From contig JAHFON010000002.1 in the NCBI GenBank assembly GCA_023261695.1, forward strand, positions 11,467 through 75,466: DNA of 64,000 nt, read 5' to 3'. How positions within the stretch are numbered: position 1 is the stretch's first letter; the number at the start of each line of letters is the position of its first letter. The position numbers and the translations under genes were made by a program. Below the pieces are notes generated by a model, which was given only the letters and a program-made list of their open reading frames with translations, was not told the DNA's origin and did not search any database. Shown here one piece after another: positions 2,286-15,809 of the stretch. The stretch comes from Candidatus Moraniibacteriota bacterium (GTDB taxonomy: Bacteria > Patescibacteriota > Minisyncoccia > Moranbacterales > UBA1568).

Positions 2286-4979
2286 ATGGCATTACACAAA
2301 GATTTTCCCAAGGACCCATACGAAATACTTGACCCGAACATTCGGTGGTTTCCTGCTGACGAAGATTTGCGGGAAAAAGGGGCTATACAAAAACTCCTCC
2401 CTCCTCTTGTGGCTGGTTTGCGGGAAAAAGTGAAAGAATGGCGAGACAAAAACTACGAGGGAGCAAGCGATACTTCTAAATCACTTCTAAATTGGTGGTT
2501 TAAAGAGGAACATATTTTGTATGACCAGCACGGAACATCTTCTCATTTCAGATATTATTTTGCGCAAAGAGAAGCTCTGGAAACAGTCGTTTGGCTCTAT
2601 GAAGTTGCAAAAGTAAAGGACAAATATGATCTCATTCGTTACAACACGACTGGCGTGCTAAGCCCGCAAATGTTTACCGAGGAATGGCTTCGCTTTGTAA
2701 TAAAGATGGCGACAGGCGCAGGCAAGACTAAGGTGATGAGCTTAATAATCGCATGGGCGTATTTTCATAAAAAATATGAGGAAGATTCTAATTTGGCAAA
2801 GAATTTTCTTTTGATAACTCCGAATGTCATTGTTTTTGAAAGAATCAAAAATGACTTTGAGGGGTTAAAAATCTTTTTTAGCGATCCTGTTTTGCCGGAC
2901 AATGGGTATCGCGGACAAAACTGGCAGGATGATTTTCAAATGACTTTGCATTTGCAGGATGATTTGCGCAATGTCTCCGACACAGGAAATATATTTTTGA
3001 CCAATATCCACAGAGTTTTTGAGGGTGATGTACGAGACGCGAGCGCGGAAGATGAGGACACTTCGCGATATTTCTTGGGCGATAAGCCAGTTACGAAAAC
3101 AAGCGATTCTACTGTTGATCTCGGTATGATTGTGAGAGACATTGATGAATTGATTGTTATCAACGATGAAGCTCATCACTTGCACGATGACAAATCGGCT
3201 TGGGTTAAATCTATCACAGACATAGACAATAGATTGAAACAGAAAGGAACTGGACTATCTTTGCAAATTGATCTAACCGCTACTCCAAAAAAGAATGACG
3301 GCTCTATTTTTGTGCAGACAATTTCTGATTATCCGCTTGTTGAAGCAATACATCAGAGAGTTGTAAAAAATCCAGTTGTGCCAGACGCGGCGAGCCGGGG
3401 GAAACTGAAAGAAAATCAGAGCACTCTATTTAGCGAAAAATACAGGGATTATATAAATCTTGGCATTGAGGAATGGCAGAAAACATACGATGTACTGAAG
3501 CCGATGGGTAAAAAATCCATTCTTTTCATAATGACGGACGATACAAAAAACTGCGATGAAGTAGCGGAATATATTGAAACAAGTTTTAAAAATCTGAAAG
3601 GCGCGGTTTTGACCATTCACACGAATAAAAGCGGAGAAATTTCTGAAAACGTGTCTGGTAAAAGCAAAGAAGAATTGGATTTGCTTAGAAAACAAGCAAA
3701 CGAAATTGATAGTTGGGAAAGCCCGTTTAAGGTGATCATTTCTGTGATGATGCTCAAGGAGGGTTGGGATGTAAAAAATGTAACAACGATTGTGGGATTG
3801 CGTCCTTATGCCGCCGATTCAAAAATTCTTCCCGAACAAACTCTTGGACGAGGGCTCCGCAGAATGTTTTTTGGTAGAGATGATGTTGAAGAATATGTGA
3901 GTGTCGTTGGAACTTCCGCTTTTATGGACTTTGTTGAGTCAATCAAGGGAGAGGGCGTTATTCTTGAGAAAAAAGCGATGGGAACAGGGGCTAAACCGAT
4001 TGCTCCGATGGTTATTGAAGTTGATAAGGATAATCCGAAAAAGGACATTGAGAAACTTGATATTGAGATTCCGGTGATGTCCCCAAGGATTCAAAGAGAA
4101 TATAAAAATCTTGCAGAATTGGATGTTTCTAAATTTGGAAATAAAAAAGTTAAGGTAAAAACTTTCTCCGAGGAGGAAAAGAGAGAAATTGTTTTTAAGG
4201 ATGTCGTTGATGAAAAAACTCACCACACAACAATACTTTCGGGCGATATTGAGCCCGATTATCAAAGTGTTGTCGGCTTTTTTGCGCAAGCAATAATGCG
4301 GGAACTGCGACTGTTCGGTTGCTATGACATTTTGTTCGGCAAAGTAAGAGAATTTGTGCAGAGTAATATGTTTGATAGCAGAGTGGACTTGTCAGACCTC
4401 AATATTTTAAGAAACTTGTCGGAAGTTGAGTATATTCGGCTTATAAAAGATTCTTTCAAGAAAGCCATTAATGATCTTACGGTCGAAGATAAAGGAGATA
4501 CAGAGATAAAAAATTATATAAAAATAAGCGAAGCGCGTCCTTTTGTCGTCAATGATAAGTCGTACTTGATACCTAAAAAATCTGTTTTCAATAAGATTGT
4601 AGGAGATAGTGATTTTGAGTTGGTATTTTCTGACTTTCTTGAGAATTGTGAGGATGTAATTTCTTTTGCAAAAAACTTTCAAAATAAGGAAGCGGGTGCG
4701 CTTAGAATTGAATATAAAAATTCAGAGGGATTTATAGCTACCTATCACCCAGACTTTTTTGTTAAGAAAGATGAAAAAACCGTTTACATTATCGAGACAA
4801 AGGGGCGCGAAGAAGATGACGATAAATTAAAATTTGAAAGACTGCAAAAGTGGTGTGAGGACGTGAACGATCGACAAAGCAGAGTCATCTACAAAGCCCT
4901 ATATATAAAACAGGAAGAATGGGAGAAGGACAAGCTCAAAAACTTTGATGAAGTTATCAGAGTATTTAGCAAAAAATAA
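2286..4979 (+). CDS. res: Type III restriction endonuclease Res subunit (SF2 DEAH helicase + C-terminal PD-(D/E)xK nuclease)
   Basis: Walker A-like AGKT and the DEAH box VINDEAHHL are present. A C-terminal PD...E.K motif (HPDFFV...YIIETKG) is present. The N-terminal LDPNIRWFP-type leader is typical of ResIII proteins. Length 897 aa. Confidence 0.7.
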   Translation: MALHKDFPKDPYEILDPNIRWFPADEDLREKGAIQKLLPPLVAGLREKVKEWRDKNYEGASDTSKSLLNWWFKEEHILYDQHGTSSHFRYYFAQREALETVVWLYEVAKVKDKYDLIRYNTTGVLSPQMFTEEWLRFVIKMATGAGKTKVMSLIIAWAYFHKKYEEDSNLAKNFLLITPNVIVFERIKNDFEGLKIFFSDPVLPDNGYRGQNWQDDFQMTLHLQDDLRNVSDTGNIFLTNIHRVFEGDVRDASAEDEDTSRYFLGDKPVTKTSDSTVDLGMIVRDIDELIVINDEAHHLHDDKSAWVKSITDIDNRLKQKGTGLSLQIDLTATPKKNDGSIFVQTISDYPLVEAIHQRVVKNPVVPDAASRGKLKENQSTLFSEKYRDYINLGIEEWQKTYDVLKPMGKKSILFIMTDDTKNCDEVAEYIETSFKNLKGAVLTIHTNKSGEISENVSGKSKEELDLLRKQANEIDSWESPFKVIISVMMLKEGWDVKNVTTIVGLRPYAADSKILPEQTLGRGLRRMFFGRDDVEEYVSVVGTSAFMDFVESIKGEGVILEKKAMGTGAKPIAPMVIEVDKDNPKKDIEKLDIEIPVMSPRIQREYKNLAELDVSKFGNKKVKVKTFSEEEKREIVFKDVVDEKTHHTTILSGDIEPDYQSVVGFFAQAIMRELRLFGCYDILFGKVREFVQSNMFDSRVDLSDLNILRNLSEVEYIRLIKDSFKKAINDLTVEDKGDTEIKNYIKISEARPFVVNDKSYLIPKKSVFNKIVGDSDFELVFSDFLENCEDVISFAKNFQNKEAGALRIEYKNSEGFIATYHPDFFVKKDEKTVYIIETKGREEDDDKLKFERLQKWCEDVNDRQSRVIYKALYIKQEEWEKDKLKNFDEVIRVFSKK

Positions 4980-10774: not shown

Positions 10775-11611
10775 CTAGAACTTAGTTGGCTTATCATATT
10801 TTCCTTCCAAGCCTTTCCACGTAATTTCAAATACTTCACGCAAAGCCTTGGCTAATTTGGGGGATTCAATGATGAGTGATTGAACGCTCTCAATGAGCGC
10901 GATGCGTACGAACTGGTCGTCGCATGATTCAATAGATACTTTAGCGCTATACATATTTTCAGGGAGAAATTTACCCGTAATTTCTGTTGTTTCTGGCAAG
11001 AGCCACTTCGCGTATGGCTTTAGTGTCGGCGTGTCCACCGTCAATCCCATCACATGGGTATGATGGCGTTCTTTGTATTCGTTCCATTCATAAAAAACTT
11101 CGTTTACTTCGGATGAAGCATCTTCAGGGTTGGCAAAAAATCCAACTATATTTTTTTCATGCAATTCCTTTTTTTTATAATCATACGCCTGTCGCAAGCC
11201 TTCAATACCTTCAAAGTACAGAACACTTGCCTTTTCAGAGGTTTCTTTTTGGAGAGACTTCAATTCCGGTAAAACACTTTTTGTTTTAAGCAGTTTCGCT
11301 TCTTGCGCTTCCAAAACAGCTTCCGGTGAACGGGCGATGTAGCGTTTTGGCTCTTCGCCGGGAACGTGTACGATTAGGCCCTTTACCACCAATTCTTCGG
11401 CAATCACATAGGCCGTCGGGCGTTTCAATCCCGCTTTTTGCGCGATCCGGTACGGGGTGGCCGGTCCAAGCTGAAGTAAAGCCAAATATATCTTTGCCTC
11501 TTTTTCACTTAATCCGAGATTTTTCAATGGTTCAATGAGATGTTGCATAGGGATGATTATGTCCAGTATACACCTATTTGTAATATTAGTCAATAATTTT
11601 GACAAATACAA
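10775..11611 (-). CDS. TrmB family transcriptional regulator
   Basis: N-terminal winged-HTH (LGLSEKEAKIYLALLQLGPATPYRIAQKAGLKRPTAYVIAEELVVKGLI) followed by a TrmB C-terminal-like region. The start may be the internal Met at 11548. Confidence 0.6.
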   Translation of the reverse strand: MYLSKLLTNITNRCILDIIIPMQHLIEPLKNLGLSEKEAKIYLALLQLGPATPYRIAQKAGLKRPTAYVIAEELVVKGLIVHVPGEEPKRYIARSPEAVLEAQEAKLLKTKSVLPELKSLQKETSEKASVLYFEGIEGLRQAYDYKKKELHEKNIVGFFANPEDASSEVNEVFYEWNEYKERHHTHVMGLTVDTPTLKPYAKWLLPETTEITGKFLPENMYSAKVSIESCDDQFVRIALIESVQSLIIESPKLAKALREVFEITWKGLEGKYDKPTKF

Positions 11612-11929
11612 CTGTCATATTGTCGAGCACTCTTTATATTAAGCCACAAAGTAGCTATATTTAGGGATATTTTTACCATAAAAATAGACTATATTATTGA
11701 CCTTTTGACGATTATTTGCTATACTGCTCTTTCAATGATGAGGACAGCAACACTCGCTTTGAAAAGTTCTTTAATTTCCATATTAAAGTTTGCGCGTTCG
11801 CTAAATCCGTATCGGCGAAATGAGAGAAGGCCTATGAGTTCGGGCGCTCTCGGCTATGCCGTGTTCCGAGACATCTCGGAATGTTTCCGAAATAACCAAA
11901 AAGTTGTTTCGGATAGTCAGAGAACTTAA

Positions 11930-12900
11930 TCTTGGACAGGGGACGTAAAATACCACAACCCCAGCGTATTGGTAACGGTCATACCAATTTCCAAGAGACG
12001 CACAAAAAATAAGTAACGAGGTGTGGTTTGTAAATAAAATGGAAAGTTACTTGCAACCATAATCGTAACCGAGCAGGAAAACCGTTTTGATGCGGCATAG
12101 GAGGGCGCAACAAAAACGGCGAGTACGTAAGCTCTCGGTGAATAACCGAAAGGAGGCCGATACTGAAAAGTGTCGCCTTTGTCACCTACAACGCAGTAGG
12201 TGAAGACCTTTCGAGCGGTTGGCACGGCTCAGACGACCGAATGGCCCTCGTGTTGCAAAACACGAAGGGCGATGGGGGTCTCAATAGAGGCCACATCGGG
12301 ACCGAGCGACGTCGTGAAGAGATCGGCATTCTCTGGGAGAAACTCCAAGAGTCACTACCCTATCTCGATCACGTCGTGGTCTACGTCGGAGCGTCAGGGT
12401 CGGAGCGAGTCATTGCACTGGCAGCACAGTTGCCTGCGTCAAAGGTCACGTTCGTCGGCTGTGATTGCGGGCTTCCTAACAAGGAGGCTCTCATCCAAGC
12501 GGCTGACTTGGACGATGCGCGGCGGATACTCTGCGAGTGCGGTGGTCGCCGAACCATGAAGTTGCTTTTTCAGAACTTCATGGAAACCGGTGAGCTCCTT
12601 CTGGCTGTGCCAGCCTAGCTCTCGCTCACCAAGAATGGTGCTCTCTGCGGAAGAGGGTTCTGGCAGTAGGCAGTAATCGGTCCTGCCAGAAGCGCTGTCA
12701 AAGGGGAAGCATTCCGCAAGTGCCCGTGCAAACCCAAGCAGGGTTCGCCCTGAGATGTCGCCACCGAAAAGCGCGGCATCGCGAAAGACTAATGCACGGC
12801 TCTACCGTCACTCTAGAACACGAGTCAAAACTGTTTGGTTGCGAGGTAAGCTGGTGGGAATAACTCGCAACCTCTTCCGCAAGGAAGACGGCAAGGTCAA
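11930..12900. other. anomalous GC-rich (~55-58%) hairpin-rich block without convincing coding frame; candidate large structured RNA/leader or horizontally acquired fragment
   Basis: Composition differs sharply from the ~40% GC flanks. Several perfect 8-10 bp hairpins: ggccctcgtg..cacgaagggc, tctggcag..ctgccaga, gttgcgag..ctcgcaac. Only short mutually overlapping ORFs in several frames, none with a Shine-Dalgarno. Confidence 0.3.
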
Positions 12901-13038
12901 CGCCGATAATGACTACCACTTTGGAGAAAAAGAATGAATCTATTTTTTTTCTCCTCTCAATTGAGATTTCAATTATGAAATTGAAGTTTCATAGAGAAAA
13001 AGTTCTTTTCAAACCTTTTCAAACAAGGAGGAATACAA

Positions 13039-13190
13039 TGAGGGAATTGAGCGGTGCAGAAATGATCGCGCGAGGACTCGGTATGCTGTTAGCGGAAAGT
13101 GTAGGAAATCAAGAGGCAATAGAGATCTGCAATGAAATGATGATAATGTTGTTCAAACTGGAAAAAACTGCAAAAAACCATCAAGGATAG
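13039..13190 (+). CDS. small protein (~50 aa), first gene of a three-gene small-protein operon
   Basis: Strong RBS aaggaggaatacaATG. Preceded by an AT-rich region with the palindrome atgaaattgaagtttcat. Confidence 0.45.
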
Positions 13191-13201
13191 GAGGAAAAAT
13201 C

Positions 13202-13510
13202 ATGGCAAAGTTGAATTTCTATCAGCTAACAGATCGTCAATCCGATGAAAGTAAGACTGTTCTTCGTGAAGGCGACAAGATGATTTTTTACCGTGAAAGC
13301 GGACTTGTTCGCTTTTCCCGAGATGGTAGGCCGCTTTACGGGTGTATGGGTGATGATAAATGTATCATTGGAAATAATAAAAGCTTTATGATTAGCGTAC
13401 TTCATCATTTTGGGATAGGCGTGGATCTGGTTGCTGAGAAAAATGATTTGATAATATATAAGCTCCGACAGTTGAGTAGTTTTTCAACGAGGTCTGCGCG
13501 AAAAGCGTGA
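13202..13510 (+). CDS. hypothetical small protein (102 aa)
   Basis: RBS aggaggaaaaatcATG. 11-nt spacing from the upstream gene. Confidence 0.5.
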   Translation: MAKLNFYQLTDRQSDESKTVLREGDKMIFYRESGLVRFSRDGRPLYGCMGDDKCIIGNNKSFMISVLHHFGIGVDLVAEKNDLIIYKLRQLSSFSTRSARKA

Positions 13511-13525
13511 GGGAGGAAGGTAAAA

Positions 13526-13828
13526 ATGGTACAGTTCTTGAGATTTGTGACTGATCTTGTAGAGGTTTGGTTGGAAGTGATGATGACAATAGTCACGACC
13601 TATCCGTGGCTTGCGTGGACTCTCGTTGTATTGGTGGTTCTTGGGATTGTTTTGGAGCTGTATTGGCAGATATTCGCCAGTCCTGAGGAGCGCCGCCGCG
13701 ATGAAGAATGCCGGCGCTATGTCAAAGAACATCGCCGTAAAGAGATGTCCGAGAGTTTGCGGCGTGAAGTGGATAGGCGGAGAGTAGTTTACTCTTCGTT
13801 ATTAAAGCCGTCGAGTAGGTGGCGATAA
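13526..13828 (+). CDS. hypothetical small membrane-anchored protein (100 aa) with highly charged C-terminal tail
   Basis: RBS gggaggaaggtaaaaATG. One hydrophobic helix (LAWTLVVLVVLGIVLELYW), then an Arg/Glu-rich tail. Confidence 0.5.
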   Translation: MVQFLRFVTDLVEVWLEVMMTIVTTYPWLAWTLVVLVVLGIVLELYWQIFASPEERRRDEECRRYVKEHRRKEMSESLRREVDRRRVVYSSLLKPSSRWR

Positions 13829-14030: not shown

Positions 14031-15809
14031 TTACAGCGCGCGTTTCTTTTCCTCCTCTTTGTAACAAATGAGAGTATCGCCGACCTGGATTTTGACATTG
14101 CCTTCAAAGACGATGCCGCATTCGTTGCCTTGATTGACTTCATCTGCGTTTTGTTTGTTCTGCTGAAGATTCATCATTTTACCTTGTCCGATAATTTCTC
14201 CATCGCGTTTGATTTCAATCAGCGAGCCGCGCAACATTTTGCCGGAACTCACGCGTCCGCCGACGATCATATCGCGTTTGCCGGTTTTGAAAATGGCCAG
14301 CACGGAAAGTTCTCCGTAGTCCGTCCGTATGATTTCCGGAGGCAGGAGCGCCGCCAGTTTTTCTTTGACCGCTTCCACTAATTTGTAAATGATGTTATAG
14401 GTTTCTATTTGTATCTTGCTGGCTTCAGCCAGGCGTTTAGCAACGGAAGTCGGCTCACTATTGAAGCCCAAAATAAGAGCGCCGGCGCTTTCCGCGATTC
14501 TGACATCGGATTCTGTAATACTGCCCACGCCCGATGAAATGATGTTCAGCGCCACTTCTGGAGATTCAATGCTGGAAAGAATTTGTTCAACGGCTTCCAA
14601 CGATCCTTGCATATCGGCTTTAAGGATGAGCGTCAGTTTTTTCTTTTGGTCATCTTCTTCTTGAATTTTGCTTAATTTTTTAACGCTGGCTTCTTGGGAT
14701 TTCTCGCGCGCTAAAGTCTTGCCGCTGACGACTTGCACGACGTCATTGACTTGCGGCGCGGTATTGAATCCATAGATGATGGTCGGAACGGATGGACCGG
14801 CTTGCTCCAAATTCTTGCCGCTCCAGTCTTCAATGCGGCGGATGCGGCCGAAAGAACCTCCGCTGATAATGTCTTGGCCGACTTTGAGTGTGCCGGTACG
14901 CACCAGTGCGGTGGCCACAGGCCCCTTTTGAGGATCCAAGTGGGACTCCAGCACGATGGCCAGTCCGTCGCGTTTGGAATCGGCGCGAAAATCTTCCACT
15001 TCGGCGAGCAGAGCGATATTTTCCAGCAGTTTGTCTATACCGATATTGTTTTTGGCGCTAATTTCCGCGCACATAGTGTCGCCGCCCCATTCTTCAAAAA
15101 GAATGCCGTGCTCGGCTAATTCCTGTTTCACCCGCTCAGGTTTGGCATCCGGTTTGTCTATTTTGTTGATGGCCACTATGACCGGCAATTTGCGTTCCTT
15201 GATGTACGCGATGACTTCTTTGGTTTGCGGACGCACGCCGTCATCCGCCGCGACCACGAGAATGGCGATGTCGGCGATGGACAATCCGCGCTTACGCATC
15301 GCGGCGAAGGCCTCGTGTCCCGGAGTATCAATGAAGGTGATGATTTGTTTGCGTTTTTTCGTTTGATAGGCGCTGATGTGTTGGGTGATGCCGCCCGCTT
15401 CGCCGGCCGCGACGTTAGCTTTGCGTATCGTGTCCAGTAATGTCGTCTTGCCATGATCCACATGGCCTAAAATTGTCACGATCGGTGCGCGCGGGAGAAG
15501 ATTTTTTCCGGAACTTTTTTCTTGAGCAATGAGTTTGTCCAGCTCTTCCAGAGTAAGGCGGCCGCCCTCGGTTTTCTCTTCGGCTGGTTCTGTTTCAAAT
15601 TCCAAATCTCCCGCGATAATACTGGCGGTATCATAATCAATCTCCTCGTTGATAGTTGCCAGAATGCCGTTTTTCATCAATTCTGTAATGATAGTCGCTA
15701 CCGGCAATTGCAAAATCTCGCTCAATTTTTTGACGCTGACGGAAGAAGGGATTGTCACTTTTTTCTTAGGCTGGCTAGCGGTATCGCTAGAATTTTCCTG
15801 TGGAGACAT
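14031..15809 (-). CDS. infB: translation initiation factor IF-2 (short form)
   Basis: GHVDHGKTTLLD G1 motif, DTPGHEAF and NKIDK motifs. 592 aa. Confidence 0.9.
   Translation of the reverse strand: MSPQENSSDTASQPKKKVTIPSSVSVKKLSEILQLPVATIITELMKNGILATINEEIDYDTASIIAGDLEFETEPAEEKTEGGRLTLEELDKLIAQEKSSGKNLLPRAPIVTILGHVDHGKTTLLDTIRKANVAAGEAGGITQHISAYQTKKRKQIITFIDTPGHEAFAAMRKRGLSIADIAILVVAADDGVRPQTKEVIAYIKERKLPVIVAINKIDKPDAKPERVKQELAEHGILFEEWGGDTMCAEISAKNNIGIDKLLENIALLAEVEDFRADSKRDGLAIVLESHLDPQKGPVATALVRTGTLKVGQDIISGGSFGRIRRIEDWSGKNLEQAGPSVPTIIYGFNTAPQVNDVVQVVSGKTLAREKSQEASVKKLSKIQEEDDQKKKLTLILKADMQGSLEAVEQILSSIESPEVALNIISSGVGSITESDVRIAESAGALILGFNSEPTSVAKRLAEASKIQIETYNIIYKLVEAVKEKLAALLPPEIIRTDYGELSVLAIFKTGKRDMIVGGRVSSGKMLRGSLIEIKRDGEIIGQGKMMNLQQNKQNADEVNQGNECGIVFEGNVKIQVGDTLICYKEEEKKRAL

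What the first reader, a model, noticed from the sequence alone, without database searches (positions are those of the whole stretch)
11930..12900. 1-kb GC-rich, hairpin-dense, apparently non-coding block embedded in a 40% GC genome
The segment has a sharply higher GC content (roughly 55-58%) than anything around it. It contains multiple perfect 8-10 bp stems: ggccctcgtg/cacgaagggc, tctggcag/ctgccaga, gttgcgag/ctcgcaac, and the near-repeat cgtcggagcg/gtcggagcg. Its ORFs are short, overlap each other in different frames and lack ribosome-binding sites. It lies between a TrmB regulator and a three-gene small-protein operon. I looked for RNase P (AGGAAAGUCC), tmRNA (3' tRNA-like end), group II intron (GUGCG start, domain V) and CRISPR signatures and found none. 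Candidates are a large structured ncRNA (the GOLLD/HEARO/ROOL class of large RNAs is poorly charted in CPR), an ORF-less degenerate intron, or a fragment of foreign high-GC DNA.
Basis: seen in the sequence. Interest (0 to 1): 0.75.

Follow-up and report, generated by a model that had tools for sequence, protein, structure and literature searches.

The report
Hidden gene flanked by structured RNAs
The GC-rich "non-coding" block is really a conserved small protein gene that starts with an unusual CTG codon, bracketed by two conserved RNA structures absent from Rfam; the larger one (about 190 bases, with a pseudoknot) begins right at the stop codon and its function is unknown.

Summary
The GC-rich, hairpin-rich block is real, but it is not one non-coding RNA.

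- **Core, 12163-12618 (+).** It encodes a 151-aa protein with more than 130 homologues, mostly in Patescibacteria. Substitutions fall mainly on third codon positions. A strong Shine-Dalgarno (GAAAGGAGG) lies 6 nt upstream of a CTG that sits where relatives have ATG, TTG or GTG. That is why only a truncated ORF without a ribosome-binding site was visible.
- **5' leader motif, about 12066-12157.** It reaches the Shine-Dalgarno and is conserved in 10 distinct loci, with compensatory base changes.
- **3' RNA, 12617-12805.** This 165-190-nt domain has five helices and a pseudoknot. It starts within 3 nt of the stop codon in 10 distinct loci, including ones whose protein is only about 30% identical. 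27 of 35 pairs show compensatory changes.

Neither RNA matches any Rfam 15 family. A TrmB-family regulator is the conserved neighbour. Sister loci carry type III hammerhead ribozymes or other structured RNAs at the same 3' position. My best guess, by analogy only, is that the 3' domain processes or delimits this cistron. The protein is an acidic Rossmann/CheY-like alpha/beta domain with a CxC...CxCGG cysteine cluster and unknown function.

The parts
10775..11548 (-). TrmB-family transcription regulator, the conserved syntenic neighbour. The likely true start is the ATG near 11548; the listed TTG at 11611 would overlap its own promoter.
   Evidence: Pfam PF01978 scores 59.6 bits against a cut-off of 25.6. 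A TrmB homologue is adjacent to the family gene in at least 15 distinct loci. A promoter-like site lies on the - strand at 11593-11565.
11697..11725 (+). Sigma-70-like promoter, TTGACC-17-TATACT with a TG extension. It is divergent from the TrmB promoter and implies a leader of about 430 nt.
   Evidence: Consensus scan, 10 of 12 matches. L001 has TTGACA-17-TATACT in the equivalent position (read from the sequence). The transcription start is inferred, not shown.
11733..12050 (+). Distal leader, dense in hairpins (for example TTCCGAGA/TCTCGGAA, and a three-way junction at 11930-11996). It is not detectably conserved in the relatives available.
   Evidence: MFE -95 kcal/mol against -76.3 +/- 5.6 for shuffles, z = -3.3. 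nhmmer finds no similarity upstream of about 12040.
12066..12157 (+). Conserved 5' leader motif.
- P1: ACCGAG 12068-12073 pairs with CUCGGU 12134-12139.
- Internal loop: GGAAA (12077-81) opposite GAGUAC (12121-26), loop-E-like.
- P2: 12082-84 with 12117-19.
- P3 hairpin: 12091-12109, with a purine-rich loop.
- Then GUGAAUAACCGAAAGGAGG, which contains the Shine-Dalgarno (12148-12156).
   Evidence: Model R2 scores 92 bits here and finds 10 distinct loci, always ending at the start codon. RNAalifold gives 13 of 23 pairs compensatory. P1 is 100% and P2 90% paired, and 0 of 500 shuffles reach the covariation score. No Rfam match; only a weak chance-level Lysine hit, 17 bits, E = 0.096.
12163..12618 (+). 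Protein-coding gene of 151 codons with a CTG start. The product is an uncharacterised Cys-rich alpha/beta protein with conserved GWH, YxGxxGSE, FVGCxCG and CECGG motifs.
   Evidence: 131 homologues at E <= 0.01, 50-70% identical over 95-100% of the query. Relatives have ATG, TTG or GTG at the homologous codon. Codon-position differences against L001 are 28/24/65. The AF2 model has pLDDT 89.5. An identical sequence including the CTG occurs in a second assembly, L078.
12617..12805 (+). Conserved 3' RNA domain ('class A').
- H1: 12627-31 / 12636-40.
- H2: 12641-46 / 12652-57.
- Pseudoknot: H2 loop 12647-51 with 12713-17.
- H3: 12658-66 / 12683-91.
- Long-range helix: 12724-30 / 12793-99.
- Window-specific UUCG hairpin: 12739-52.
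- H5: 12756-61 / 12773-78, with loop CACCGAAAA.
   Evidence: nhmmer and model R1 (149.5 bits here) find it in 10 distinct loci, each starting -1 to +3 nt from the stop. On 9 sequences, 92.9% of cells are paired against 25-40% when partners are slid, 27 of 35 pairs are compensatory, and 0 of 500 shuffles reach the observed value on all five measures. G-U pairs (12) outnumber A-C (5), which favours the + strand. Indels are not multiples of three. No Rfam match.
12806..12960 (+). Variable 3' tail with hairpins: GGTTGCGAG/CTCGCAACC at 12837-12872, CTTCC/GGAAG, and an AU-rich 13-bp hairpin at 12923-12954. There is no canonical intrinsic terminator on the + strand.
   Evidence: MFE z = -4.4. Not conserved in relatives. 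The terminator scan finds none on the + strand.

Best explanation
**Anatomy (shown; about 0.9).** The block is one transcription unit on the + strand.
- A sigma-70-like promoter (11697-11725) lies divergent from the TrmB-family regulator gene.
- It drives a long structured leader. The last 95 nt or so of that leader (12066-12157) are a conserved three-helix motif that runs into the Shine-Dalgarno.
- Next comes a 151-codon gene (12163-12618) that starts at CTG and encodes a conserved, acidic, Cys-rich Rossmann/CheY-like protein.
- A conserved pseudoknotted RNA domain of about 190 nt (12617-12805) begins at the stop codon.
- The high GC comes from a GC-rich coding sequence (GC by codon position 0.66/0.42/0.63) plus GC-rich RNA helices.

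**Mechanism (inferred).**
- The 5' motif probably sets translation initiation at the weak CTG start. Its P1 3' strand and a CC-GAAA-GG mini-hairpin abut or overlap the Shine-Dalgarno. Its loop-E-like internal loop is a typical docking site for a protein or a tertiary contact.
- The 3' domain is dedicated to this cistron, not to the genes downstream, which differ between loci.
- Sister loci carry type III hammerhead ribozymes 41 to about 75 nt after the same gene's stop, and no + strand terminator follows here. I therefore commit to the 3' domain being an RNA processing or cistron-delimiting element. It would be either self-cleaving or directing cleavage and protecting the resulting end, and its folding would be coupled to ribosomes terminating on its first nucleotides. 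I put this functional reading at about 0.35.

The confidence figure below applies to the anatomy and the identification.
For: **Coding**
- Homologues and alignment.
- Start-codon register across relatives.
- Third-position excess of substitutions.
- Confident fold prediction, pLDDT 89.5.
- 315 representatives in 1.84e9 proteins, all single-domain.

**3' RNA**
- Found by nhmmer and by the covariance model.
- Covariation.
- Pseudoknot GYGGA/UCCRC co-varies (UA in 3 sequences, CG in 4).
- Downstream genes are not conserved.

**5' motif**
-. A second, minimal copy sits before another small ORF in L002.

**Synteny with TrmB**
-.

**Hammerheads in sister loci**
- RF00008 matches with E from 6e-7 to 9e-3, all with the full core.
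- 14 matches to the core pattern on the gene strand against 1 on the opposite strand.
- L053 has one 41 nt after the stop and L021 one 45 nt after.

**Promoter present, no + strand terminator**
-.
Against: - No transcript data, so the promoter, the transcript ends and any cleavage are all inferred.
- The window has no hammerhead core.
- The 3' RNA matches no known ribozyme family.
- Hammerheads in sister loci sit 41-75 nt from the stop, whereas this RNA abuts it. The two may therefore not be functional equivalents.
- The single-sequence MFE of the 3' core is not better than shuffles (z = -0.9).
- Alignment A10 was fitted to the model, which inflates the pairing percentage. The independent MAFFT alignment A7 still gives 88% paired and 22 of 35 compensatory pairs.
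- CTG starts are inefficient in model bacteria, so the gene could be weakly expressed or decaying, although every family-invariant residue is intact.
- Only about 10 of about 55 distinct loci carry this RNA.
Confidence: 0.8

Rival explanations
1. The 3' RNA is a partner of the encoded protein. It could be a co-transcribed RNP subunit, a substrate mimic or an autoregulatory binding site, possibly sharing a recognition element (ACCGAAA) with the 5' leader, rather than a processing element.
For: - The RNA shows strict linkage to this gene family across deep divergence (protein identity down to 29-31%) while downstream genes vary.
- ACCGAAA occurs both in the H5 loop and just 5' of the Shine-Dalgarno (read from the alignments).
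- Precedents from general knowledge: OLE RNA with OapA, Y RNA with Rsr.
Against: - The protein is acidic (pI 5.4, family median 6.05, net charge -2 to -4).
- It has a generic Rossmann/CheY-like enzyme-type fold with no known RNA-binding domain.
- Most family members lack this RNA.
Confidence: 0.2
2. The 3' RNA is a riboswitch or attenuator that controls read-through into the downstream small-protein genes (13038-13828).
For: - The fold is complex, with a pseudoknot and many invariant unpaired nucleotides.
- It lies upstream of the small-gene cluster, and no + strand terminator separates them.
Against: - Downstream genes are unrelated between loci that carry the RNA.
- No conserved expression platform (terminator or Shine-Dalgarno sequestration) follows the core; the tail is variable.
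- The fixed register with the upstream stop codon is not expected of a leader for downstream genes.
Confidence: 0.1
3. The block is a horizontally acquired high-GC cassette (gene plus its RNAs). Its GC content reflects a foreign origin rather than function.
For: - The gene is GC-richer than its locus in almost all genomes, for example 0.65 against 0.48 in L013 and 0.55 against 0.39 in L019.
- GC3 is 0.63 against 0.37-0.56 in neighbouring genes.
- Distribution is patchy, across Patescibacteria, Obscuribacterales and a Nanoarchaeota MAG.
- Closely related proteins are followed by different 3' RNAs.
Against: - The chromosomal context is ordinary: RmuC, CCA-adding enzyme, infB, a two-component system.
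- Synteny with TrmB is conserved.
- No relatives in viral contigs and no phage or defence family hits.
- No integrase, transposase or flanking repeats were seen. Acquisition would also not conflict with the element being functional.
Confidence: 0.15
4. One reading: the whole 11930-12900 block is one large non-coding RNA (GOLLD/HEARO/ROOL-like) or an ORF-less intron.
For: The whole region is dense in hairpins and rich in GC.
Against: - A conserved protein with a coding substitution pattern fills 12163-12618.
- No Rfam large-RNA or intron model matches at E <= 10.
- Conservation in relatives is confined to the CDS and the two adjacent motifs.
Confidence: 0.02
5. The element after the stop codon acts as DNA, for example an integron attC-like recombination site at the end of a gene cassette, not as RNA.
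For: It abuts the stop codon of a small gene within arrays of small same-strand ORFs, as attC sites do (general knowledge).
Against: - It has five helices plus a pseudoknot and long invariant single-stranded stretches, not a simple imperfect hairpin.
- G-U pairs outnumber A-C 12 to 5, which indicates selection on the + strand RNA.
- No integrase was seen in the neighbourhoods examined.
Confidence: 0.02

Closest known systems
Type III hammerhead ribozymes between cistrons (Rfam RF00008)
   Same: They occupy the same genomic slot in sister loci of the same gene family, on the gene strand shortly after the stop codon (L053 +41 nt, L021 +45 nt). They sit in operons of small genes without obvious terminators.
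   Different: The window has no CUGAUGA...GAAA core and no RF00008 hit at E <= 10. The window RNA is three times larger, has a different architecture and abuts the stop codon.
RAGATH-type motifs (RNAs associated with genes associated with twister and hammerhead ribozymes; Weinberg et al. 2015, known to me and listed as reference 9 in PMC6154101)
   Same: It is a conserved structured RNA of unknown function found in gene neighbourhoods enriched in self-cleaving ribozymes. It was found by the same kind of contextual reasoning.
   Different: No Rfam RAGATH family matches the 3' RNA. The only RAGATH hit in the region is a chance-level RAGATH-19 match on the opposite strand at 12911-13000 (E = 3.3, 19.5 against 85.6 bits). 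Here the RNA is locked to one specific protein family and to its stop codon.
Large ornate or gene-associated bacterial RNAs (OLE with oapA, HEARO/IscB omega RNA, GOLLD, ROOL)
   Same: It is a GC-rich structured RNA standing out in a lower-GC genome and genetically linked to a specific protein gene, as OLE and HEARO are.
   Different: It is much smaller (165-190 nt against 400-800 nt). It has no Rfam match. The associated protein is not a nuclease or membrane protein of those systems, and the 'large RNA' impression came from merging a CDS with its UTRs.
Structured 5' leaders with a loop E (bulged-G) motif, such as the lysine riboswitch P2 or ribosomal-protein autoregulatory leaders
   Same: The 5' motif has a conserved GGAAA / GAGUAC internal loop between two co-varying helices and ends at the Shine-Dalgarno. 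This loop probably explains the weak Lysine riboswitch hit. That link is my inference.
   Different: It scores 17 bits against a gathering score of 30, and that hit spans 12091-12218, running into the CDS. The motif has three helices, not the five-way junction of the lysine aptamer. No ligand or binding protein is known.
MptE-like domain (PF01973) and Rossmann/CheY-like alpha/beta folds (for the protein)
   Different: The Pfam score is 17 bits against a cut-off of 34.6. Foldseek finds no PDB match at E <= 1e-3, and there is no solved sequence relative. The CxC...CxCGG cluster is specific to this family.

Membership tests
Protein-coding gene (bacterial CDS) | Open frame with homologues conserved at the protein level over its full length | tested here: met
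   131 hits at E <= 0.01, the best at 2.5e-62. They are 50-70% identical over 95-100% of the 152-aa query. 315 cluster representatives were found by profile search.
Protein-coding gene (bacterial CDS) | Substitutions concentrated at third codon positions | tested here: met
   Differences by codon position 1/2/3 against 11 relatives are, for example, 28/24/65 (L001) and 34/26/68 (L002).
Protein-coding gene (bacterial CDS) | Ribosome-binding site and a start codon at the homologous position | tested here: met
   GAAAGGAGG lies 6 nt before the CTG at 12163. Relatives have ATG (6), TTG (3) or GTG (1) at the same codon. CTG is non-canonical, and its use here is inferred.
Conserved structured RNA (3' domain, class A) | Base pairs maintained by compensatory changes beyond controls | tested here: met
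   27 of 35 pairs are compensatory. 92.9% of cells are paired against 25-40% when partners are slid, and 0 of 500 shuffles reach the observed value on all five measures. The MAFFT-only alignment gives 88% paired and 22 of 35 compensatory pairs.
Conserved structured RNA (5' leader motif) | Base pairs maintained by compensatory changes beyond controls | tested here: met
   15 of 23 pairs are compensatory. 84% of cells are paired against 28-47% when slid. P1 is 100% and P2 90% paired. P3 is poorly aligned, at 61%.
Any Rfam 15 family (4227 models, including GOLLD, ROOL, HEARO, OLE, raiA, RAGATH, riboswitches and ribozymes) | Covariance-model score at or above the gathering threshold | tested here: not met
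   Only 6 tRNAs in the whole window. Nothing credible in 11600-13100 at E <= 10. Nothing on the homologous elements in relatives.
Hammerhead ribozyme | Catalytic core CUGAUGA ... GAAA with three stems around a cleavable NUH site | tested here: not met
   No match to the core pattern in the window and no RF00008 hit. The core is present in sister loci L002, L021 and L053, and the pattern also in L010, L030, L039 and L047.
Group I / group II intron | Intron catalytic core (P3-P8, or domain V) flanking an intron-encoded ORF (homing endonuclease or reverse transcriptase), inserted in a host gene | tested here: not met
   No Rfam intron hit. The ORF has no endonuclease or RT domain. No interrupted host gene was found; the flanks are a promoter and small ORFs.
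RNase P RNA / tmRNA | Rfam or ARAGORN detection | tested here: not met
   No hits in the region.
Riboswitch (generic) | Conserved aptamer 5' of functionally coherent genes, with an expression platform and a ligand | tested here: inconclusive
   - 5' motif: conserved, adjacent to the Shine-Dalgarno and always before this gene, but there is also a minimal copy before another ORF, and no ligand can be tested here.
- 3' RNA: downstream genes are not coherent and no platform follows it.
Self-cleaving ribozyme (new class) | Site-specific self-scission in vitro, giving 2',3'-cyclic phosphate and 5'-OH ends | not testable with these tools
   Only contextual support: hammerheads in the same slot in sister loci.
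MptE-like (PF01973), for the protein | Pfam gathering score of 34.6 bits | tested here: not met
   17-17.5 bits, E about 0.004, covering only profile positions 135-170.
TrmB transcription regulator (neighbouring gene) | Pfam PF01978 above its cut-off | tested here: met
   59.6 bits against 25.6. NCBIfam TrmB equivalogs score far below their cut-offs, so it belongs to the family but is not an orthologue of the archaeal sugar sensors.

The most novel reading that the evidence does not exclude
The 165-190-nt pseudoknotted RNA that starts at the stop codon is a new class of catalytic RNA, self-cleaving or otherwise processing. In this reading it has replaced the hammerhead ribozymes that sit in the same slot in sister loci. 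Together with the 'class B' and 'class C' 3' RNAs of other clades, this gene family would then mark a hotspot for undiscovered ribozyme classes in Patescibacteria.
Probability: 0.15. Interest if true: 0.85.

Novelty: new variant of a known kind. Interest (0 to 1): 0.55.

Why it matters
- **Annotation.** GC-rich 'intergenic' islands in low-GC genomes can be a mis-started CDS together with its structured UTRs.
- **New RNA motifs.** Two structured RNA motifs absent from Rfam 15 are supported by strong covariation in little-studied Patescibacteria. The 3' domain is unusual in that it is complex, pseudoknotted and locked to the stop codon of one protein family across deep divergence.
- **Where to look next.** The same gene family is followed in other clades by hammerhead ribozymes or by other unmatched structured RNAs. 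This neighbourhood is therefore a concrete, testable place to look for new ribozymes or RNA-processing signals.
- **The protein.** The family (a CxC...CxCGG cluster on an alpha/beta fold, always next to a TrmB-type regulator and sometimes next to thioredoxin or peroxiredoxin genes) is itself uncharacterised.

Tried and rejected
- **Rfam.** Gathering and permissive scans of the window and of 29 related loci found no family for either RNA. The Lysine riboswitch hit (17 bits) was rejected as chance or a shared loop-E effect.
- **tRNA/tmRNA.** Nothing in the block.
- **Long-range stem GCGGAAGAGG/CCTCTTCCGC (12648-57 / 12871-80).** I saw it by eye and rejected it. Relatives show the 5' arm forming hairpin H2 and a pseudoknot instead, and the 3' arm lies in the non-conserved tail.
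- **RNAalifold's CUCG/CGAG hairpin.** Replaced by the co-varying H1.
- **Protein function.** Pfam, NCBIfam, PADLOC, PHROGs and PDB sequence and fold searches gave only generic alpha/beta similarity. The afdb50 library was unavailable.
- **Phage origin.** No relatives in viral contigs.
- **Conserved downstream or upstream partner genes other than TrmB.** None found by tblastx.
- **R1 with filters off on 40 other loci.** No further members except a weak but correctly placed hit in L071.
- **R2 hit in L030 (2627-2695).** Rejected as a hammerhead, not a leader motif.
- **Literature.** Searches for structured RNAs or hammerheads in CPR/Patescibacteria returned nothing relevant.
Full report
**1. Observation**

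The window averages 44.3% GC. The 800-nt stretch from 12101 has 56.3% GC, the highest of all 800-nt windows (mean 0.444, sd 0.046). Other coding regions come close: infB at 14701 reaches 0.549 and 20501 reaches 0.536. The rise begins near 12100 rather than 11930.

- TTCTGGCAG/CTGCCAGAA is perfect.
- GGTTGCGAGGTA/TAACTCGCAACC matches 11 of 12.
- The ggccctcgtg stem is only 90% complementary. Like the GTCGGAGCG direct repeat, it lies inside what turns out to be coding sequence.

**2. The core is a gene**

Six-frame translation shows frame +1 open from 12142 to 12618.

- **Homologues.** Translating from about 12160 gives ...LKSVAFVTYNAVGEDLSSGWH.... A search with this 152-aa sequence returned 131 proteins at E <= 0.01, mostly 145-170 aa. 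They are 50-70% identical and cover 95-100% of the query, including the 27 residues upstream of the ATG. Named sources are Patescibacteria group bacteria, Candidatus Uhrbacteria and Candidatus Peregrinibacteria.
- **Start codon.** Homologues begin M-x-x-VAFVTYN. At the homologous codon, relatives have ATG (L001, L002, L003, L007, L009, L011), TTG (L005, L006, L018) or GTG (L019). The window has CTG at 12163, 6 nt after GAAAGGAGG.
- **Independent assembly.** A second assembly (L078, Logan SRR14366796) is 100% identical over 11170-12772, including the CTG. Its gene caller also produced the truncated 125-aa product.
- **Substitution pattern.** Differences from 11 relatives fall mainly on third positions, for example 28/24/65 for L001.

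The short overlapping ORFs are out-of-frame and antisense artefacts of a GC-rich CDS; tblastn hits to them mirror the true frame.

**3. The protein**

- AlphaFold2 on a 74-sequence alignment gives pLDDT 89.5 and pTM 0.86. The fold is a beta-alpha three-layer fold.
- Foldseek finds no PDB match at E <= 1e-3.
- Pfam gives a sub-threshold MptE-like match of 17 bits against a cut-off of 34.6, seen in 22 of 74 members.
- NCBIfam, PADLOC, PHROGs and PDB sequence searches give nothing.
- Invariant residues include GWH, YxGxxGSE, FVGCxCG...K and CECGG, so there are four clustered cysteines.
- The protein is acidic, with pI 5.4 and a family median of 6.05.
- The family is small: 315 representatives at E <= 1e-3 among 1.84e9 proteins, all single-domain. 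It is absent from viral contigs.

**4. Synteny**

A TrmB-family regulator (PF01978, 59.6 bits) is adjacent to the family gene in the window and in at least 15 distinct relatives. No other flanking gene is conserved.

Thioredoxin and thioredoxin reductase (L001) and a peroxiredoxin (L002) sit just beyond TrmB in two loci. This hints at thiol chemistry but is anecdotal.

The window's wider context is ordinary chromosome: RmuC, CCA-adding enzyme, infB, DUF4446, an aminotransferase, a histidine kinase and a response regulator.

**5. The 3' RNA**

blastn showed nucleotide similarity only over the CDS and about 40 nt upstream of it. nhmmer with the window's flanks then found the 190 nt after the stop conserved in L034, L005, L006 and L022. 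Iterated profiles found six distinct copies, each starting -1 to +3 nt from the stop codon.

Alignments show five helices and a pseudoknot, all with compensatory changes. Window coordinates are:

| Element | Window coordinates |
|---|---|
| H1 | 12627-31 / 12636-40 |
| H2 | 12641-46 / 12652-57 |
| Pseudoknot (H2 loop GYGGA with UCCRC) | 12647-51 / 12713-17 |
| H3 | 12658-66 / 12683-91 |
| Long-range helix | 12724-30 / 12793-99 |
| H5, loop CACCGAAAA | 12756-61 / 12773-78 |

Covariance model R1 added further copies.
- L076.
- L077, where the RNA follows the first of two tandem paralogues.
- The Saccharibacteria locus L019, whose protein is 29% identical. It has large insertions but keeps the core and has a co-varying long-range helix.
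- A weak but exactly placed reduced copy in L071.

The signature CTCGCT-N5-AGW lies 2-6 nt after the stop in all ten distinct loci.

Support for the structure:
- On nine sequences, 92.9% of cells pair, against 25-40% with slid partners.
- 27 of 35 pairs have changes on both sides.
- None of 500 shuffles reaches the observed value on any measure. This alignment is model-fitted.
- The MAFFT alignment A7 gives 88% paired and 22 of 35 compensatory pairs.
- G-U pairs (12) exceed A-C (5), which favours the + strand.
- Indels are not multiples of three, and the reading frame after the stop differs between loci, so the element is not coding.
- No Rfam family matches it here or in relatives.

The CAGGG-UUCG-CCCUG hairpin (12739-52) is an insertion specific to the window.

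**6. The 5' leader**

The 95 nt before the start are conserved in L002, L005, L006, L022, L034/48/75 and L042. More weakly, they are also conserved in L074, L076 and L077.

- **Structure.** P1 is ACCGAG/CUCGGU. An internal loop has GGAAA opposite GAGUAC(R)URAG, which I read as loop-E-like. P2 and a P3 hairpin with a purine-rich loop follow. Then comes GUGAAUAACCGAAAGGAG, which contains the Shine-Dalgarno.
- **Support.** P1 is 100% and P2 90% paired with two-sided changes, and 0 of 500 shuffles reach the covariation score.
- **Second copy.** A minimal copy (P1 only, then GGUGAAUAAC...GGAGG) precedes another small ORF in L002.
- **Further upstream.** A sigma-70-like promoter (TTGACC-17-TATACT, 11697-11725) faces away from the TrmB promoter. 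The 11733-12066 stretch folds better than shuffles (z = -3.3) but is not conserved in the available relatives.

**7. Context that bears on function**

The 3' flanks of other family members form separate conserved clusters.
- L003, L009 and L035 share a different structured RNA ('class B'). 11 of 34 pairs are compensatory with only three sequences.
- L001 and L074 share another ('class C').
- L021 and L053 share a type III hammerhead ribozyme.

RF00008 matches with complete cores are listed below. All are below the gathering score of 48.5 bits but have small E-values.

| Locus | Coordinates | Bits | Position |
|---|---|---|---|
| L053 | 3476-3530 | 43.5 | 41 nt after the family stop |
| L053 | 2450-2504 | 44.1 | upstream of the family gene |
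| L053 | 1630-1680 | 29.9 | further upstream |
| L021 | 639-689 | 29.4 | 45 nt after the stop |
| L002 | 3494-3565 | 38.4 | upstream of the family gene |

The core pattern CTGAYGAG-N4-34-CGAAA occurs 14 times on the gene strand and once on the other strand across the loci. It does not occur in the window.

The gene family thus lives in small-gene operons punctuated by self-cleaving ribozymes. The slot right after its stop codon is filled by different structured RNAs in different clades.

**8. Mechanism**

*Shown.* The anatomy is a promoter-like site, a structured leader with a conserved motif next to the Shine-Dalgarno, a CTG-start CDS, a conserved pseudoknotted 3' domain and a variable tail with no + strand terminator.

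*Inferred.*
- The leader modulates initiation at a weak start.
- The 3' domain belongs to this cistron, because downstream genes vary.
- By analogy with the hammerheads in sister loci, it most likely processes or delimits the cistron. Its first nucleotides would lie within the footprint of a terminating ribosome, which would couple folding to translation. I rate this at about 0.35.

*Alternatives.*
- An RNA partner or autoregulatory site for the protein (about 0.2). The acidic, enzyme-like protein weakens this.
- A riboswitch for the downstream genes (about 0.1). Variable downstream genes and the lack of an expression platform weaken this.

The single-sequence MFE of the core is unremarkable (z = -0.9), so the case for structure rests on covariation.

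**9. Novelty and score**

The 1-kb ncRNA is not real as described. What is there is a mis-started gene together with two structured RNA motifs absent from Rfam 15. One of them is a complex pseudoknotted domain locked to a stop codon, which is an unusual arrangement.

Function is unknown and sampling is modest: ten distinct loci. I did not find a paper describing these motifs, but the library is incomplete. I rate interest at 0.55 and novelty as a new variant of a known kind (gene-associated structured RNA motifs in ribozyme-rich neighbourhoods).

Noticed in passing
window 12163-12165: The conserved gene starts with CTG where relatives have ATG, TTG or GTG. The identical sequence occurs in an independent assembly (L078), where the gene caller produced a truncated 125-aa product starting at the internal ATG 12241.
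   Followed up: yes
L053 1630-1680, 2450-2504, 3476-3530; L021 639-689; L002 3494-3565; pattern hits also in L010/L046, L030, L039, L047: Type III hammerhead ribozyme matches with complete catalytic cores lie on the gene strand between small ORFs in loci of the same gene family. They are below the Rfam gathering score, with E from 6e-7 to 9e-3. There are 14 pattern hits on the gene strand against 1 on the opposite strand, and none in the window.
   Followed up: partly
L003 4476-4610; L009 1276-1415; L035 1385-1515: A second, different conserved structured RNA ('class B') follows the family gene in another clade. With three sequences, 11 of 34 predicted pairs are compensatory. A likely pseudoknot joins the loop UCCCAGUCUGAC and the downstream CUGGGGA. 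No Rfam match.
   Followed up: partly
L001 4454-4620 and L074 2777-2940: A third conserved 3' flank ('class C'), 87% identical over 165 nt, follows the family gene in the two loci whose proteins are among the closest to the window's. L001 also has about 650 nt of GC-rich, hairpin-rich sequence upstream of the gene.
   Followed up: no
L002 3151-3218: A minimal copy of the 5' leader motif (GUAGCCAAGC...GCUUGGUGAAUAAC...GGAGG) lies directly before a different small ORF, a predicted 80-aa membrane protein with a GTG start at 3213. This suggests the motif is a reusable translation-initiation module in these operons.
   Followed up: partly
L077 1491-1937 and 3001-3483: Two paralogues of the family (P0113 and P0054) lie in tandem on one contig. 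Only the first carries both the 5' leader and the 3' RNA.
   Followed up: partly
L001 3543-3728 and L002 2033-2230: A small ORF of about 61-65 aa follows the promoter downstream of TrmB in both loci and is conserved between them (LLRQ.GFT..GR....V...FE+R.I.TP.GG.P). The window has no counterpart.
   Followed up: no
L011 903-3651: An array of about 17 tRNA genes lies immediately upstream of the family gene in an Obscuribacterales MAG.
   Followed up: no
L034 1031-1103 (same as L075 from about 3839); L007 7346-7711: A tmRNA gene lies a few hundred nt (L034/L075) or about 3 kb (L007) downstream of the family gene. The 106-aa ORF called at L075 3944-4264 probably overlaps it and is spurious.
   Followed up: no
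window 11556-11725: Back-to-back promoter-like sites lie in the 614-nt TrmB-to-gene intergenic region: TTGACT-17-TATACT on the - strand (11593-11565) and TTGACC-17-TATACT on the + strand (11697-11725). A GTCAA-N6-TTGAC palindrome near 11580-11596 could be the regulator's operator. The TTG start listed for TrmB (11611) would overlap its own promoter, so the ATG near 11548 is more likely.
   Followed up: no
window 12923-12954: An AU-rich 13-bp hairpin (GGAGAAAAAGAAT / ATTTTTTTTCTCC) lies between the 3' RNA tail and the first well-supported small gene (ATG 13038, preceded by AAGGAGG). It is not a canonical terminator.
   Followed up: no
window 13526-13828: The third small downstream ORF (100 aa, with a predicted transmembrane segment) has weak similarity to a PHROG holin family (E = 0.0015) and to TraQ and DUF2568 (sub-threshold).
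   Followed up: no
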